In this document: positions 20,646-24,709 of the stretch, piece after piece
Position numbering within the stretch: position 1 is the first letter of the stretch
Layout: each line of letters begins with the position of its first letter
NCBI GenBank assembly: GCA_029781975.1
Contig: JAKOVQ010000016.1
Coordinates: 530,086-594,085, forward strand
Direction: 5' to 3'
Origin: Acidobacteriota bacterium
Lineage (GTDB): Bacteria > Acidobacteriota > Thermoanaerobaculia > UBA5066
DNA: 64,000 nucleotides
Made by a program: the position numbers and the translations under genes
The notes under the pieces: generated by a model
Database searches by the model: none
What the model was told of the DNA's origin: nothing
What the model saw: only the letters and a program-made list of their open reading frames with translations

Positions 20646-21977
20646 TCAGACCTTCAGGTCGTAGCCTTCCTTCCTCGAGACGTAGACGGCGCAGGTGGCG
20701 TCGCCGATCACGTTGGGGACGGTCCGGGCCATGTCGAGGAGCCGGTCGACCCCGATGATGACCGCGATCCCCTCCGCGGGGACGCCGACGGAGGTGAGGA
20801 CGAGGACGAGGAGGGGGATGGAGCCGCCGGGGACGCCGGCGGTGCCGATGGCGGTCAGGACCGCGAGGAGGATGACGAAGAGCTGCTGGCCGACGCTCAG
20901 GTGGATCCCGAAGACCTGCGCGAGGAAGACGCACGCGACCCCCTCGAAGAGGGCCGTCCCGTTCATGTTCATCGTCGCGCCGAGCGGGAGGACGAACCCG
21001 GCGATCTGCGGCGGGACGCCCAGGTCGCGCTCGGAGACCTCGATCGTCGTCGGGAGCGTGGCGCTCGAGGAGCTGGTGGAGAAGGCGGTGACCATGACCG
21101 GTCGGACCTTCCGCAGGAACGCACCCGGGCTCACCTTCGCCAGGAAGCGGAGGAGGATCGGGTAGACGCCGAGGACGAGGAGCGTGAGCCCCGCGAGGAC
21201 GGTGACGACGAAGAGGAGGAGCTGCTTGAGGATGTCGAAGCCGAAGCGGGACGTCACGGAGAAGATGAGGCCGAAGACGCCGTACGGAGCGAGCCGCAGC
21301 GCGAACTCGATGATGACGACCGTGACGTCCGCGAGCCCCTCGAGGAGCCTCATCCAGAAGCTCTTCTTCTCGGCCGAGAGCTTCGTCACGCCGATGCCGA
21401 ACATCAGGGCGAAGAAGATGACGGCGAGCATGTCCCCCTTCGCCGCTGCCTCGACGGGGTTCCGGGGGATGACGTTCACGAGGAGAGACGGCCCGAACTC
21501 GGCCTTGCCGGCGGTGCCGATGCGGGAGGCCGCCTCGCCGCGGTAGGTCTCGAGGAGCTTCTCCCGCGTCGCCTGCGGCAGCCCCTCGCCGGGGCGGAGC
21601 GTGTTGACGAGGACGAGGCCGATCGCGACGGAGCAGGCGGTCACGAGGACGAAGTACCCCATCGTCCGGGCGCCGATCCGGCCGAGCCGCTTCAGGTCGC
21701 CGAGGCTCGCCACGCCGAGGGCGAGCGAGCTGAAGACGAGGGGGATCACGACCATGAAGAGCATCCGGAGGAAGAGCTGCCCCACCGGGACGAAGAGCCA
21801 CCGGTTCGCGGCCTCGACGAGCTCGGGGGCCCGCGGGACGACCAGGAGGTTCGCGGCGACCCCGCAGACCGCCCCGAGGAGGAGGCCGAGGAGGATGCGA
21901 TTGGAGAGCGCGCCCTCGGCCGGAGGCGTGGAAGGCGTTGCGCCGTCGGGGGATGTCATGGCGCGACAGGATGCCAT
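20646..21977 (-). CDS. dicarboxylate/amino acid:cation symporter (DAACS, GltP/DctA family)
   Basis: Start set at ATG 21977 (MASCRAMTSPDG...; alternative ATG 21959); 8+ TM helices and re-entrant-loop motifs typical of EAAT/GltP fold. The 47 upstream codons of the annotated ORF are the antisense of tRNA-His (GERRGSNPRPSEPQSDALPTEL) and are not coding. Confidence 0.9.
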   Translation of the reverse strand: MASCRAMTSPDGATPSTPPAEGALSNRILLGLLLGAVCGVAANLLVVPRAPELVEAANRWLFVPVGQLFLRMLFMVVIPLVFSSLALGVASLGDLKRLGRIGARTMGYFVLVTACSVAIGLVLVNTLRPGEGLPQATREKLLETYRGEAASRIGTAGKAEFGPSLLVNVIPRNPVEAAAKGDMLAVIFFALMFGIGVTKLSAEKKSFWMRLLEGLADVTVVIIEFALRLAPYGVFGLIFSVTSRFGFDILKQLLLFVVTVLAGLTLLVLGVYPILLRFLAKVSPGAFLRKVRPVMVTAFSTSSSSATLPTTIEVSERDLGVPPQIAGFVLPLGATMNMNGTALFEGVACVFLAQVFGIHLSVGQQLFVILLAVLTAIGTAGVPGGSIPLLVLVLTSVGVPAEGIAVIIGVDRLLDMARTVPNVIGDATCAVYVSRKEGYDLKV

Positions 21978-22035
21978 CCCCGGGGGGATGCCGGGTGGGG
22001 GCTTTTCTGATACCCTCCCCCGTCCGAATGAGCGC

Positions 22036-22112
22036 GGTGAGAGTAGCTCAGTCGGTAGAGCATCGGACTGTGGCTCCGACGGTCGCGGGTTCGAACCCCG
22101 TCTCTCACCCCA
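22036..22112 (+). tRNA. tRNA-His (anticodon GTG)
   Basis: Manual fold: G-1 + acceptor GTGAGAG/CTCTCAC, D-arm GCTC/GAGC, anticodon stem TCGGA/TCCGA with loop CTGTGGC (GTG), T-arm GCGGG-TTCGAAC-CCCGT, discriminator C pairing G-1 (His identity), CCA encoded. Confidence 0.9.
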
Positions 22113-22134
22113 CTTCACCGGCTCTTTCCCAGAT

Positions 22135-22212
22135 GCGCCCGTAGCTCAGCCCGGATAGAGCGTCAGACTCCGGATCTGAAGGTCCCGCGTTCGAATCGCG
22201 GCGGGCGCACCA
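22135..22212 (+). tRNA. tRNA-Arg (anticodon CCG)
   Basis: Acceptor GCGCCCG/CGGGCGC, D-arm GCTC-AGCCCGGATA-GAGC, anticodon stem TCAGA/TCTGA loop CTCCGGA (CCG), T-arm CCGCG-TTCGAAT-CGCGG, discriminator A, CCA encoded. Confidence 0.9.
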
Positions 22213-22470
22213 CCTCTCGACCGAAGGCCACCCCGCGGGGTGGCCTTTTTCTCGGGCCGCGGAGGGGCTCGGGGAACCCGGGCTCGGGTTCCCCGGGACG
22301 GGTCGCCGTCCGTCAGACGGAGGGGATGAAGGTCCCGCGTTCGAATCGCGGCGGGCGCACCACCTCTCGACCGAAGGCCACCCCGCGGGGTGGCCTTTTT
22401 CTCGGGCCGCGGAGGGGCTCGGGGAACCCGGGCGCGGGTTCCCCGGGACGGGTCGCCGTCCGTCAGACGG
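22177..22470 (+). repeat. tandem direct duplication (2 x ~144 bp, period 150 bp, 1 mismatch) comprising the 3' 36 nt of tRNA-Arg + its terminator + ~75 bp
   Basis: 22177-22320 vs 22327-22470 identical except t/g at 22283/22433; second copy carries a partial tRNA-Arg (TGAAGGTCCCGCGTTCGAATCGCGGCGGGCGCACCA). Confidence 0.9.
22226..22252 (+). terminator. rho-independent terminator after tRNA-Arg (second identical copy at 22376..22402)
   Basis: Perfect palindrome GGCCACCCCG/CGGGGTGGCC followed by TTTTTCTC; duplicated 150 bp downstream within the tandem repeat. Confidence 0.8.
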
Positions 22471-22533
22471 GTCCCGCAGAGGTTTGGGCCGCGGGACCCG
22501 GCGCAACTACGATGCGGCCTGCAGGAGGTCCCG

Positions 22534-23076
22534 ATGCGCCACGTCCTGACTCTCGCAGCCGCCGGTTTCCTGGTCCTGGCCCCGCTCCAGGCGGCCGAGA
22601 CCCCCAAGCCCCTCGCCGCCGGGGACCCGGCTCCCGCCTTCTCGCTCCCGGGGTCCGACGGGAAGACCCACAGCCTCTCCGACTTCCTCGGGAAGGAGGT
22701 CGTCGTCCTCGCCTGGTTCCCGAAGGCCTTCACCGGCGGGTGAACGCTGGAGTGCAAGTCGCTCCGTGAGAGCGGCGACGAGCTCCGGGGGTTCCAGGTG
22801 GCCTACTTCGCGGCGAGCGTCGACCCGGTCGACCTGATCACGAAGTTCGCGAAGTCCCTCGAGGCGGACTACCCGATGCTGGCCGACCCCGACGGGACGG
22901 TGGCAAGGGCCTACGGCGTCGTCGCGCCGGACCGGGCGCGCCCGCAGCGCTGGACGTTCTACATCGGAAAGGACGGCAAGCTCCTCTACGTCGACCGCGA
23001 CGTGAAGGTGGGGACGGCCGGGGCCGACGTGGCGAAGCGGCTCGCCGAGCTCGGGGTGGCAAAGCGGAAGGGCTGA
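22534..23076 (+). CDS. secreted Bcp/PrxQ-type peroxiredoxin with in-frame TGA at the peroxidatic-Cys position (candidate selenocysteine-containing peroxiredoxin; alternatively nonsense-mutated pseudogene)
   Basis: ATG 22534 with GGAGG 8 nt upstream; ORFs 22390..22743 and 22798..23076 are the same frame split only by TGA 22741-22743; the 180-aa product is a signal peptide plus full Bcp fold. FPKAFTGG-[TGA]-TLECKSLRE aligns with E. coli Bcp YPKAMTPG-C-TVQACGLRD (recalled from memory). Confidence 0.65.
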
Positions 23077-23082
23077 CGCCGT

Positions 23083-24129
23083 TCAGCGGCGGGGCGTGAG
23101 CTCCTCGGCGACCCAGCCGCGGACGAGCTCCAGGGCCTCCCGGTCGGGGACCTTCGTCCCGAGCGGCGGCATCTGCGAGGCGGGGCGCCGCGAGGCCATC
23201 CTGTAGACCAGGGCGCTCCCGTCCGGGTCGCCGGGGGCGACGCGCAGGCTCCCGTGCCCCGACGCACCCGGGATGAGCCATCCCCCCTCGACCCCGACCG
23301 TGGTGGCCCGCGCGGGAGGGACGCTCCCTTCGCGCGACCCGACCAGCTGCCGGAGGAGGAGGCCGGTCGTCCCCGCCGGGTTGTCGGCGTTGTGGCAGGC
23401 GCCGCAGTTGCCGGAGAGGTAGCCGAGGACGGCCCGCTCGCGCGGCGTCGCCGCGGGGATCCTCGGCGGGCGCGCGACCCACTCGGGCCGCGCGGGCGAC
23501 AGGAGGCCCCGCTCCTCGAGCGCCGCGAGGGTCACCGCCCCCGGCCGGAGAGTCTCGGCGTGCGGGGCCAGCGGGTCGCGGTCGTCGGAGAGCTGCAGGG
23601 CGGAGAAGCCGAGGACCTCGACGCGCGCGCTCTCGTGGCAGGCGCGGCAGTCGAGGCGGCCGGGAAGATCGTGGCGGAGACCCGGGGCGATCTCGGCGGC
23701 TCCGGCGACGCCGTCGACGGGCGCGAGGATTGCCGCGGTTCCCGCGTCGTTCCAGACGTAGGTGGCGAAGACCCAGTCGTTCGCCGTGGCGCGCCAGAGG
23801 AAGCGGGTCTCGACGCGCCGCCCGCCGAAGGCGAACTCCTTCCAGAGCTTCGTCCCGACCGGGAACTCCCATGCGTCGGGGTCCGAGACGTCGATCGCCG
23901 AGCCGGGGGGGAGGAAGATCCAGCGCGCCTTGGCGGCGCCGTCGGTCCAGAGCGGGTACTGGGGCTGGTAGAAGAGGACGGACGGGGCGAGGCGGAGCGT
24001 CGCCGGGTCGGCGTAGAGCCCGGTCTCGGCGAGCGTCGGCGGGGGCTCCGGCGGGGCGCTCCCCGCCCCCGCCGCGCCCAGGGCGAGGAGTCCGAGGAGA
24101 AGCGCGGCGGGGCGGAGGGGCGTCGGCAC
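23083..24129 (-). CDS. secreted di-heme c-type cytochrome family protein (two CXXCH motifs)
   Basis: 348 aa; signal peptide [25 protein letters not shown]; heme-binding motifs CRACHE and CGACHN; convergent with the peroxiredoxin gene, ends 6 nt from its stop. Confidence 0.8.
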
Positions 24130-24142
24130 CGGAGGCTCCCCG

Positions 24143-24709
24143 TCACTTCGCCGGAGCGGCCGGCTCGGGCGGGTCGACCGGCTGCGGGACGCGGTTCCTC
24201 ACGGCCGGGATCGTCCTGAGGTAGGCGTAGATCGCCTTCAGGTCGTCATCGGTCGCCTGGGAGATCCAGTAGACCGGCATCGGCGGGCGGACCGGGCGGC
24301 CGTGACCCATGTGGCGGCCCGTCCGGAAGGTCTCGAGGAAGGTCTTCTCCGTCCACTTGCCCAGGCCGGTCTCGGGGTCCGGGGTCAGGTTCGCGGTGAA
24401 GGTGATCCCCCAGGGCCCGGCGAAGGCGGTGTTCGTCCCGGTCCCCGACCAGACCCAGGCCCCGTCCCCGTGCGACGGGGCGGCGGGGACCCCGAACGAC
24501 TCGGGGTGGCCCGAGAGCATCCGGCCCATGTCGGGCTCGGGGCCCTTCGGTCCCATCTTCAGGGGGGTGTGGCAGTCGTTGCACGACATGATCCGCACCA
24601 GGTAGCCCCCGCGCTCCTCGGGAGACGCTCCGGGCGCCGGGGGGGCGGCGGAGGCCCCCGCTGACAGGGCGAGGAGGATCGGGAGGGTCAGGGTCGTCGT
24701 CGTTCTCAT
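24143..24709 (-). CDS. secreted mono-heme cytochrome c
   Basis: 188 aa; signal peptide MRTTTTLTLPILLALSAGASA; CNDCH heme motif; 13 nt upstream of the di-heme cytochrome gene (operon); AGGTGA RBS 5 nt before ATG. Confidence 0.85.
   Translation of the reverse strand: MRTTTTLTLPILLALSAGASAAPPAPGASPEERGGYLVRIMSCNDCHTPLKMGPKGPEPDMGRMLSGHPESFGVPAAPSHGDGAWVWSGTGTNTAFAGPWGITFTANLTPDPETGLGKWTEKTFLETFRTGRHMGHGRPVRPPMPVYWISQATDDDLKAIYAYLRTIPAVRNRVPQPVDPPEPAAPAK

What the first reader, a model, noticed from the sequence alone, without database searches (positions are those of the whole stretch)
22177..22470. 150-bp tandem duplication that copies the 3' half of tRNA-Arg(CCG) plus its intrinsic terminator
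22177-22320 and 22327-22470 are identical apart from 1 mismatch. The second copy carries the 3' 36 nt of tRNA-Arg and a second complete terminator (GGCCACCCCG/CGGGGTGGCC-TTTTT).

Partial 3' tRNA duplications are the usual scar of integrase-mediated insertion at a tRNA gene (attL/attR), but here the copies are directly adjacent with no cargo between them. Possible explanations:
- remnant of an excised or collapsed integrative element,
- slippage duplication,
- assembly artefact.

A strong 9-bp hairpin (GGGTCCCGC…GCGGGACCC, 22468-22500) follows. The repeat lies immediately upstream of the candidate selenoprotein gene, so it could affect read-through transcription into it.
Basis: seen in the sequence. 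Interest (0 to 1): 0.6.

Follow-up and report, generated by a model that had tools for sequence, protein, structure and literature searches.

The report
Integrase scar array beside tRNA-Arg
The 150-bp tandem repeat is real and is this genome's version of a conserved leftover of mobile-element integration at a tRNA-Arg gene, an ordinary kind of scar with one unexplained conserved detail.

Summary
The repeat has period 150, spans 22177-22470 and has one mismatch. An independent k=31 assembly of run SRR15686344 breaks exactly 30 nt inside each repeat border, so the junction is in the reads and is not an artefact.

It is not a fresh slippage event. The same structure occurs in at least nine other loci from related Holophagales/Thermoanaerobaculia genomes and metagenomes. 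Each has a full tRNA-Arg(CCG), a terminator, a conserved GGGCCGCGGARGGG motif, a 24-bp palindrome, and then a truncated tRNA copy. That copy starts in the anticodon stem, carries a replaced anticodon loop and runs to CCA.

Three related genomes lack the structure. In other relatives, 7.6-10.3 kb elements with P4-type tyrosine integrases sit at this tRNA. Their right ends carry the same left half-site (GCCGAC-C) that flanks the truncated copy.

Best reading: an integration scar, a cargo-less micro-remnant of attL/attR whose copy number changes by unequal exchange. In the window the unit was recently re-duplicated, and a third unit is cut off at a synteny break.

Why the replaced loop and the palindrome are conserved is unexplained. 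I found no link to the selenoprotein gene. This is a known kind of feature, of modest interest.

The parts
22037..22112 (+). tRNA-His(GTG), first gene of the tRNA pair
   Evidence: ARAGORN and Rfam tRNA at 69.5 bits. The symporter/tRNA-His/tRNA-Arg order is kept in L003-L009, L083, L089 and L091.
22135..22212 (+). tRNA-Arg(CCG), complete. It is the attachment-site gene and the first member of the array.
   Evidence: ARAGORN and Rfam at 66.2 bits. In L089 and L091 the same tRNA is the left end of an integrated element.
22161..22184 (+). Anticodon arm of the tRNA (CGTCAGAC TCCGGATC TGAAGGTC). This is the presumed recombination core: two stem half-sites around the 7-nt loop.
   Evidence: In complete elements the identity between left and right ends starts at YAGAC and runs to CCA. 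The right ends in L084, L087 and L093 carry a hybrid stem, C28 with A42. That the crossover lies in the loop is inferred, not shown.
22213..22253 (+). Terminator region, copy 1 (hairpin 22226-22245, T run 22246-22250)
   Evidence: Folds at -21.7 kcal/mol, z -3.5, followed by UUUUU. The sequence differs between species but the hairpin is kept.
22254..22267 (+). Conserved motif GGGCCGCGGAGGGG, copy 1
   Evidence: Mean pairwise identity 0.94 over 9 loci, against 0.63 for the adjacent terminator region.
22270..22295 (+). Palindrome H2, copy 1 (GGGGAACCCG-GGCT-CGGGTTCCCC)
   Evidence: Folds at -27.4 kcal/mol, z -4.2. Identity 0.94 over 9 loci, with three pairs changed on both sides at its base. In the window it occurs only at these two places.
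22306..22334 (+). Core of the truncated copy: CCGTC CGTCAGAC GGAGGGGA TGAAGGTC. Both stem half-sites are kept and the anticodon loop is replaced.
   Evidence: The orthologous sites in relatives read CCGAC CGTYAGAC G[C/G]AGGTAC TRAAGGTC.
22327..22362 (+). 3' 36 nt of tRNA-Arg, second copy (variable loop, T arm, acceptor 3' strand, CCA)
   Evidence: Exact match to 22177-22212.
22363..22403 (+). Terminator region, copy 2 (hairpin 22376-22395, T run 22396-22400)
   Evidence: Identical to copy 1.
22404..22417 (+). Conserved motif GGGCCGCGGAGGGG, copy 2
22420..22445 (+). Palindrome H2, copy 2. It carries the only mismatch between the units, G22434 against T22284, in the loop.
22461..22470 (+). Start of a third unit (CGTCAGACGG), cut off after 10 nt. 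The synteny break with relatives lies after 22470.
   Evidence: In register with 22161 and 22311. Homology beyond 22470 is at chance level. Genes to the right are absent from the relatives' loci, and the relatives' cytochrome c gene is absent from the window.
22468..22500 (+). Hairpin GGGTCCCGC...GCGGGACCC, 34 nt upstream of the peroxiredoxin start codon. It is not part of the repeat and its function is unknown.
   Evidence: Folds at -24.8 kcal/mol, z -3.4. No counterpart was found in the relatives' loci.
22534..23076 (+). Context only: secreted AhpC/TSA-type peroxiredoxin with an in-frame TGA at 22741-22743
   Evidence: Translation and Pfam AhpC-TSA.

Best explanation
The repeat is the window's copy of a conserved array of attachment-site remnants on the 3' side of tRNA-Arg(CCG).

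Shown:
- In this lineage the tRNA is the integration site of elements that encode P4-type tyrosine integrases.
- These elements rebuild the tRNA at their left end. At their right end they leave a displaced copy that starts in the anticodon stem and runs to CCA.
- The truncated copy in the window has that form. Its left half-site is of the element type, its right half-site and the rest of the tRNA are intact, and the 7-8 nt between them (the anticodon loop) is replaced.

Inferred:
- An ancestral element integrated here and then lost all its cargo. It left about 110 bp: a terminator, the GGGCCGCGGARGGG motif, the H2 palindrome and the element-side half-site. This is a micro-version of a cis-mobilizable remnant.
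- The crossover lies in the anticodon loop.
- The changed loop no longer matches the tRNA's, so integrases of incoming elements cannot excise the remnant. That would explain why it persists.
- The identical tRNA-derived parts let copies homogenise and let copy number change by unequal homologous exchange. L008 has three copies.
- In the window such an exchange recently re-duplicated the unit (99% identity). A third unit was cut off by a rearrangement that brought in the present right flank.

The array most likely does nothing for the cell beyond supplying tandem terminators after the tRNA operon.
For: The repeat is real:
- See, and the independent contig breaks 30 nt inside both borders.

The structure is shared by relatives:
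- L005, L008, L009, L083-L087, L092 and L102 carry a truncated copy with the same junction CGTYAGAC-G[C/G]AGGTAC-TRAAGG.
- L003, L004, L006 and L089 have the tRNA only.
- In L086 only the tRNA part is repeated, with a 63-nt unrelated spacer. That is the classical scar layout.

Integrase elements use this tRNA:
- L084 and L087 encode proteins with Phage_integrase and Arm-DNA-bind_3 domains next to a partial copy.
- L089 and L091 hold whole elements of 10.3 and 7.6 kb between the complete tRNA and the partial copy, beside the same symporter gene.

The half-sites match:
- The element ends read GCCGAC-C / GCCGGC-C before YAGAC in L084, L089, L091, L092, L093, L099, L101 and L102. L085 and L087 differ.
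- The truncated copies read CCGAC-C in most loci.
- The tRNA reads ATAGAG-C.
- GACC pairs with GGTC of the variable loop and so extends the inverted repeat around the loop. A related integrase clade shows the same symmetry at another tRNA.

Other support:
- In L084, L085, L087, L092 and L102 an integrase element sits in tandem, directly left of the remnant. This is the accretion layout described for cis-mobilizable elements (PMC5704250).
- A tRNA gene plus a displaced 3' fragment is the standard island signature, and anticodon-centred sites are common (PMC4383910).
Against: - The spacer (terminator, motif, H2) shows no detectable homology to the left or right arms of the sampled elements (nhmmer). 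Its origin from an element is therefore inferred only from the half-site.
- Both copies are followed by the same species-specific terminator. That needs either concerted evolution or an element whose arm resembled the host flank.
- The motif, H2 and the replaced loop are 0.90-0.94 identical between species, while the terminator region and the linker are 0.63 and 0.52. That looks like selection and is unexpected for a dead scar.
- In L091 an element end is joined directly to the replaced loop. My model explains this only by a secondary conversion or deletion.
- No related integrase lies in the 64-kb window.
- The crossover position was never shown experimentally.
Confidence: 0.6

Rival explanations
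1. Plain tandem duplication of native DNA by slippage or unequal exchange, unrelated to integrases. It would be ancient, inherited vertically and kept uniform by gene conversion. The replaced loop would be filler or later mutation.
For: - The copies are directly adjacent, with a constant period of about 150 in most loci.
- Copy number varies from 2 to 3.
- The spacer has no homology to element arms.
- In-register microhomology CGTCAGAC is present.
Against: - The left flank of the truncated copy (CCGAC-C) matches element ends and not the tRNA.
- Four to six substitutions cluster in the 8-nt loop, while the 36 nt to the right have none.
- L086 has the same junction with a different 63-nt spacer and no shared flank.
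- A junction made at the 8-nt microhomology would read CGTCAGAC-TCCGGATC, and it does not.
Confidence: 0.15
2. The unit is a selected functional module rather than a scar. It could be an attachment site with its own overlap sequence, which recombines only with partners carrying the same overlap or traps elements. It could instead be a tRNA-like RNA made of GGGCCGCG paired to the acceptor 3' strand, H2, an extended anticodon-like arm, the T arm and CCA.
For: - Conservation is a mosaic. The motif, H2, the half-site and the replaced loop are 0.90-0.94 identical, next to segments at 0.52-0.63.
- RNAalifold gives a four-helix, cloverleaf-like consensus with 98% of cells paired.
- In L091 an element end carries the replaced loop.
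- Stem pair 28:42 of the truncated copy follows the tRNA's own C:G or T:A state in all loci.
Against: - The acceptor-like helix never varies, so it gives no evidence either way.
- There is no room for a promoter, and none was predicted, between the terminator and the unit.
- There is no Rfam family match.
- Nine of ten integrase-bearing contigs show the true loop at the element end.
- No locus shows an element inserted at the replaced-loop site with a matching left junction.
- The window's own copy is the most degenerate one (CCGTC, GGAGGGGA) and has no fold signal (z -0.7).
Confidence: 0.15
3. Assembly or scaffolding artefact: two overlapping contig ends joined without merging. The period equals a common read length.
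For: - The period is exactly 150.
- The copies are 99% identical.
- Arrays in L008 and L009 contain 100-N runs, so assemblers do struggle here.
Against: - The independent k=31 assembly of SRR15686344 breaks at k-1 = 30 nt inside both repeat borders, which requires the junction to be in the reads.
- The same junction type is assembled in many unrelated projects and species.
- The junction octamer is orthologous to the one in relatives.
Confidence: 0.03

Closest known systems
tRNA gene plus displaced 3' tRNA fragment, the signature of tyrosine-integrase genomic islands (Islander principle, PMC4383910; sublocation classes of Williams 2002, recalled from memory)
   Same: A complete tRNA is followed, in the same orientation, by a 3' fragment that runs to the end of the gene. 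The identity block starts in the anticodon stem, as in anticodon-centred sites. Relatives have real islands with an integrase between the two copies.
   Different: In the window only about 114 nt lie between the copies, with no integrase and no cargo, so it fails Islander's integrase and 2-kb filters. The anticodon loop of the fragment is replaced rather than identical.
Cis-mobilizable elements (CIMEs) and tandem accretion at att sites (PMC5704250; Pavlovic 2004 and Bellanger 2011 as cited there)
   Same: It is a decayed element that keeps both att-type ends and has no recombination genes. In L084, L085, L087, L092 and L102 a fresh integrase element sits in tandem with it.
   Different: It is about 150 bp rather than kilobases. 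One end has a changed central region, so it is probably not mobilizable. Mobilisation was not tested. The derivation by deletion is inferred.
Heterospecific recombination sites with altered spacer or overlap, such as lox or FRT spacer variants and lambda att overlap mutants (general knowledge, not tested here)
   Same: Both half-sites are kept and the central 7-8 bp are changed. In those systems this prevents recombination with the wild-type site.
   Different: Those are engineered or laboratory mutants. Here the variant is natural and conserved across species, and its recombination behaviour is unknown.

Membership tests
Genomic island at a tRNA gene (Islander definition) | Complete tRNA gene with a cognate 3' fragment downstream in the same orientation, reaching the gene's 3' end | tested here: met
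   The tRNA is at 22135-22212 and the fragment at 22311-22362, ending in CCA.
Genomic island at a tRNA gene (Islander definition) | Tyrosine integrase gene between the tRNA and the fragment | tested here: not met
   Only 98 nt lie between CCA and the fragment. tblastn with the two relatives' integrases finds nothing in the 64-kb window. The feature is met in relatives L089 and L091.
Genomic island at a tRNA gene (Islander definition) | Length of 2-200 kb | tested here: not met
   The unit is 150 bp.
Cis-mobilizable element (CIME) | No integration or transfer genes | tested here: met
   No credible gene lies in 22213-22470. The only content is a terminator, a motif and a palindrome.
Cis-mobilizable element (CIME) | Retains functional attL and attR sites | tested here: inconclusive
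   The left site is the intact tRNA. The right site keeps both half-sites but its central 8 nt differ at 6 positions in the window and 4 in relatives. Function cannot be tested with these tools.
Cis-mobilizable element (CIME) | Derived from an integrative element by deletion | tested here: inconclusive
   The element-type half-site GCCGAC-C is shared. The spacer has no detectable homology to the sampled element arms.
Cis-mobilizable element (CIME) | Found in tandem (accretion) with an intact element using the same site | tested here: met
   This layout is not in the window. It is seen in relatives L084, L085, L087, L092 and L102 as integrase, element end, true-loop copy, spacer, then replaced-loop copy.
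Simple slippage duplication | Head-to-tail junction made only of the duplicated sequence, and specific to one lineage | tested here: not met
   The junction octamer differs from the source at 6 of 8 positions, and its ortholog is present in at least 9 other loci from different species.
Structured RNA family (Rfam) other than tRNA | Match to a curated covariance model | tested here: not met
   Only the two tRNAs pass. The other matches are far below the gathering score.

The most novel reading that the evidence does not exclude
The truncated copy, its palindrome and the GGGCCGCGG motif may form a selected module rather than debris. One possibility is a natural attachment site with an altered overlap. 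Such a site would be immune to excision by the resident integrase family, and could either serve elements with a matching overlap or trap newly integrated ones by conversion, as L091 may show. The other possibility is a tRNA-Arg-derived tRNA-like RNA. The evidence for selection is the mosaic of 0.90-0.94 identity next to 0.52-0.63 across species.
Probability: 0.15. Interest if true: 0.6.

Novelty: new member of a known kind. Interest (0 to 1): 0.35.

Why it matters
- It settles a quality question. The repeat is genuine sequence and not an assembly error, and it should not be collapsed.
- It marks tRNA-Arg(CCG) as an integration hot spot in an uncultured group of Acidobacteriota (Holophagales/Thermoanaerobaculia).
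- It gives the att core and the integrase clade that use the site. It also shows that the DNA to the right of the array, including the selenocysteine peroxiredoxin gene, is not syntenic with relatives.
- The conserved altered-loop site is a small, testable case of how an attachment-site remnant can escape excision and persist. If that is confirmed, it would be a natural counterpart of engineered heterospecific recombination sites.
- Otherwise it is an ordinary scar.

Tried and rejected
- **A degenerate third tRNA copy after 22470** (GTCCCGC...GCGGGACC resembling the T arm). The local alignment score is at chance level: 413 of 1000 shuffles score as well, and 45% of genomic background does. Only the 10 nt CGTCAGACGG are in register.
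- **Spacer as fused arms of the sampled elements.** An nhmmer profile of nine spacers hits only the arrays themselves, not the element arms of L084, L087, L089, L091 or L092.
- **An integrase in the window.** tblastn with both integrases finds none.
- **A phage or provirus carrying the site.** The viral collection has no exact match to the tRNA 3' part, the H2 palindrome or the altered core. One integrase relative at 30% identity was found and not pursued.
- **An RNA reading.** There is no Rfam hit. A consensus fold exists, but its key helix never varies and only four pairs covary, one of which merely follows the tRNA. The window's truncated copy folds no better than shuffles.
- **Promoter and terminator scan of 21900-22600.** It found nothing. 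Its terminator rule missed the obvious hairpin plus T run, which I confirmed by folding.
- **The ATG-started ORF 22326-22769** that begins in the junction. The ATG is absent in relatives (GGTACTG/A), so it is not a gene.
- **The replaced loop as the usual element allele.** Nine of ten integrase-bearing contigs carry the true loop at the element end.

Full report
**1. The observation**

The window has tRNA-His at 22037-22112 and tRNA-Arg(CCG) at 22135-22212. Tandem Repeats Finder reports one array at 22177-22470 with period 150, two copies, 99% matches and no indels. The 32-nt tRNA 3' part occurs exactly twice, against none in shuffles. The one mismatch is T22284 against G22434.

The octamer CGTCAGAC, which is the 5' strand of the anticodon stem, is in register at 22161, 22311 and 22461. 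The second copy therefore begins in the anticodon stem. Only the next 8 nt differ (TCCGGATC in the tRNA, GGAGGGGA in the copy). A third unit starts at 22461 and stops after 10 nt.

Each unit holds four further parts:
- the tRNA 3' part;
- a terminator hairpin (-21.7 kcal/mol) with a U run;
- the motif GGGCCGCGGAGGGG;
- a 24-bp palindrome that I call H2 (-27.4 kcal/mol).

**2. It is not an artefact**

The flanking proteins were looked up by exact sequence. Both are on Logan contigs of run SRR15686344. One contig ends at window position 22206 and the other at 22441. Each end is exactly 30 nt inside a repeat border.

Logan assemblies use k=31 (from my own knowledge). A contig that stops k-1 bases into a repeat means the graph branches there. 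So the reads contain a second predecessor of TGAAGG... and a second successor of ...CGTCAGACGG. The duplication junction supplies both. A single-copy locus would have given one unbroken contig.

**3. Relatives**

A scan of species-representative genomes with the neighbouring symporter protein found seven Holophagales/Thermoanaerobaculia genome bins at 83-87% protein identity. All have the same symporter/tRNA-His/tRNA-Arg order.

- L003, L004 and L006 have the tRNA alone.
- L005 and L009 have a truncated second copy.
- L008 has at least three tRNA 3' parts.

A metagenome scan for the junction gave five more loci, L083-L087. Integrase look-ups added L092 and L102.

In all of these loci the truncated copy reads CGTYAGAC, then a replaced octamer, then TRAAGG...CCA. 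The octamer is GCAGGTAC in seven loci, GGAGGTAC in L009, L091 and L092, and GGAGGGGA in the window. The window's repeat is therefore the ortholog of an old, shared structure and not a private recent slip.

In L086 only the tRNA part is repeated. The spacer there is an unrelated 63 nt and the flanks differ, which is the textbook scar layout.

**4. Integrases use this tRNA**

L084, L085 and L087 have no complete tRNA. Instead, foreign DNA is joined to a copy with the true anticodon loop, and the replaced-loop copy follows about 150 nt later. The adjacent genes in L084 and L087 encode proteins with Phage_integrase and Arm-DNA-bind_3 domains. These two proteins are 38% identical to each other.

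Homologues of the L084 integrase led to two complete elements, L089 and L091. Their order is symporter, tRNA-His, complete tRNA-Arg, then 10.3 kb (L089) or 7.6 kb (L091) of cargo ending in the integrase gene, then the partial tRNA copy.

Identity between the two ends runs from YAGAC in the anticodon stem to CCA. This fits the anticodon-centred class of sites that Islander counts in 2083 islands (PMC4383910).

Three further observations bear on the core:
- In most of the ten integrase-bearing contigs the element side reads GCCGAC-C or GCCGGC-C just before the stem (L085 and L087 differ), while the tRNA has ATAGAG-C.
- GACC is complementary to GGTC of the variable loop. The element therefore carries a longer inverted repeat around the loop than the tRNA does. 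That is the expected look of two recombinase half-sites around an overlap region.
- A sister integrase clade (P0006) shows the same GACC-stem-loop-stem-GGTC symmetry at a different tRNA-like 3' end.

The right ends in L084, L087, L093 and L101 carry C28 with A42, in loci whose other copies have the T:A pair. This suggests that the crossover lies between those positions, that is, in the loop. It is an inference and was not shown.

**5. What the truncated copy is**

Its left flank is CCGAC-C in most loci (CCGTC-C in the window). That is the element-type half-site and not the tRNA's. It therefore looks like the right end of an integrated element whose cargo has gone.

What remains is a terminator, the motif, H2 and the half-site, about 110 bp between the two tRNA-derived parts. 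This matches the idea of a cis-mobilizable remnant. The tandem layout with a fresh element in L084, L085, L087, L092 and L102 matches the accretion scheme reviewed in PMC5704250.

The central 7-8 nt differ from the tRNA loop at 4 positions in relatives and 6 in the window. Tyrosine recombinases generally need matching overlaps (general knowledge). Such a site should then be refractory to excision, which would explain why this remnant survives while normal ends are removed. That step is inference.

Within a genome the copies share their species-specific terminators, although these differ slightly in L005 and L083. This points to homogenisation and unequal exchange between the identical tRNA parts, and copy number does vary from 2 to 3.

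In the window the two units differ at 1 of 144 positions, and the second unit includes a second H2. The last expansion there is therefore recent.

**6. The right edge**

In L003, L004, L005, L009, L083 and L092 a multihaem cytochrome c gene on the other strand abuts the tRNA or the array. In L008 and L084 a HicA-type gene lies in between. The whole window lacks that cytochrome gene, and the window's genes to the right of 22470 are absent from the relatives' loci.

The last spacer is cut at a different point in each lineage. In nhmmer profile positions, the cut is at 40, 49, 55-57 and 68, and the spacer is complete in the window. So the right border of the array is a recurrent rearrangement point, and the selenocysteine peroxiredoxin gene is not a conserved neighbour. 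I found nothing that ties the repeat to that gene.

**7. What does not fit**

- The spacer has no detectable similarity to the arms of the sampled elements.
- Across species the motif, H2, the half-site and the replaced loop are 0.90-0.94 identical, while the terminator region and the linker are 0.63 and 0.52. A dead scar should not show this mosaic.
- A consensus fold pairs GGGCCGCG with the acceptor 3' strand and gives a cloverleaf-like shape. However, that helix never varies, and only four pairs covary.
- In L091 an element end is joined directly to the replaced loop. The same integrase in L092 has the true loop followed by the remnant. I can explain L091 only by a secondary conversion or deletion.

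These points keep a functional reading alive at about 0.15.

**8. Verdict**

The feature is a new example of a known kind: a tRNA attachment-site remnant in tandem array. It has one small unexplained detail, the conserved altered loop and palindrome. Interest is modest.

Noticed in passing
window 22534-23076: The peroxiredoxin (AhpC/TSA) gene has an in-frame TGA at 22741-22743 in the motif FTGG-TGA-TLEC. It also has a signal-peptide-like N terminus and an AGGAGG ribosome-binding site. The Logan gene calls split it into two ORFs of 69 and 92 aa, and both hit AhpC-TSA.
   Followed up: partly
window 22470 onward, compared with L003-L009, L083 and L092: There is a synteny break exactly at the right edge of the array. 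The multihaem cytochrome c gene that abuts the tRNA or array in relatives is absent from the whole 64-kb window, and the window's genes at 22534-24709 are absent from the relatives' loci.
   Followed up: partly
L089 571-650 and L092 418-497: ARAGORN calls the element's right end, together with the element arm, an 80-nt 'tRNA-Arg(CCG)'. So the elements carry a near-complete, degenerate copy of the whole tRNA at their attachment site, not just the 3' part.
   Followed up: no
L091 1-258 compared with L092 1-638: The integrase protein is identical and the element arm is identical. However, a 19-nt patch differs at 9 positions: GGC CCATAGAC TCCGGATC in L092 against GAC CGTTAGAC GGAGGTAC in L091. 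The L091 version equals the chromosomal remnant site. It looks like conversion from the remnant, or loss of one repeat unit.
   Followed up: partly
L084 3065-3090, L087 1817-1842, L093 and L101 upstream of the integrase: The right-end copies have a mismatched anticodon stem, C28 with A42, in loci whose other copies have the T:A pair. The rebuilt tRNA at the left end would then carry T28-G42, so the elements may drive change in this stem.
   Followed up: no
L095-L098, about 200 nt upstream of the integrase gene: A sister integrase clade (P0006, 71% identical) ends at a different tRNA-like 3' part...CCTAGA ATCGCAC TCTAGAGGTCGGGAGTTCGATCCTCCTCAGCTCCACCA. The loop would read anticodon CGC. It has the same GACC...GGTC extended symmetry. 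ARAGORN does not call it a tRNA.
   Followed up: partly
L008 1181-1280 and L009 3654-3753: Runs of exactly 100 N sit inside the arrays of two co-assembled genome bins. Removing the run in L009 restores an intact tRNA 3' end and a 150-nt period. These are probably scaffold gaps caused by the repeat, although the tool warns that some stretches are masked.
   Followed up: partly
L084 3330-3716, also L087 and L008 right of the array: A HicA-toxin-family gene lies directly right of the array, between it and the cytochrome c gene. This is another sign that this border collects insertions.
   Followed up: no
window 21960-22036 and the same region in L005, L008, L009 and L083: The 78 nt between the symporter start and tRNA-His are 85% identical across species. 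A fully conserved block, TTTCTGATA(T/C)CCTCC(G/C)CCGTCCGAATGAGCGCG, lies just before the tRNA and is probably the tRNA operon promoter. The sigma-70 consensus scan finds nothing there.
   Followed up: no
L092 265-300: The last truncated copy in L092 has a damaged 3' end (CGGGCGACCTA instead of CGGGCGCACCA) and no terminator before the cytochrome c gene. This shows that outer copies do decay.
   Followed up: no
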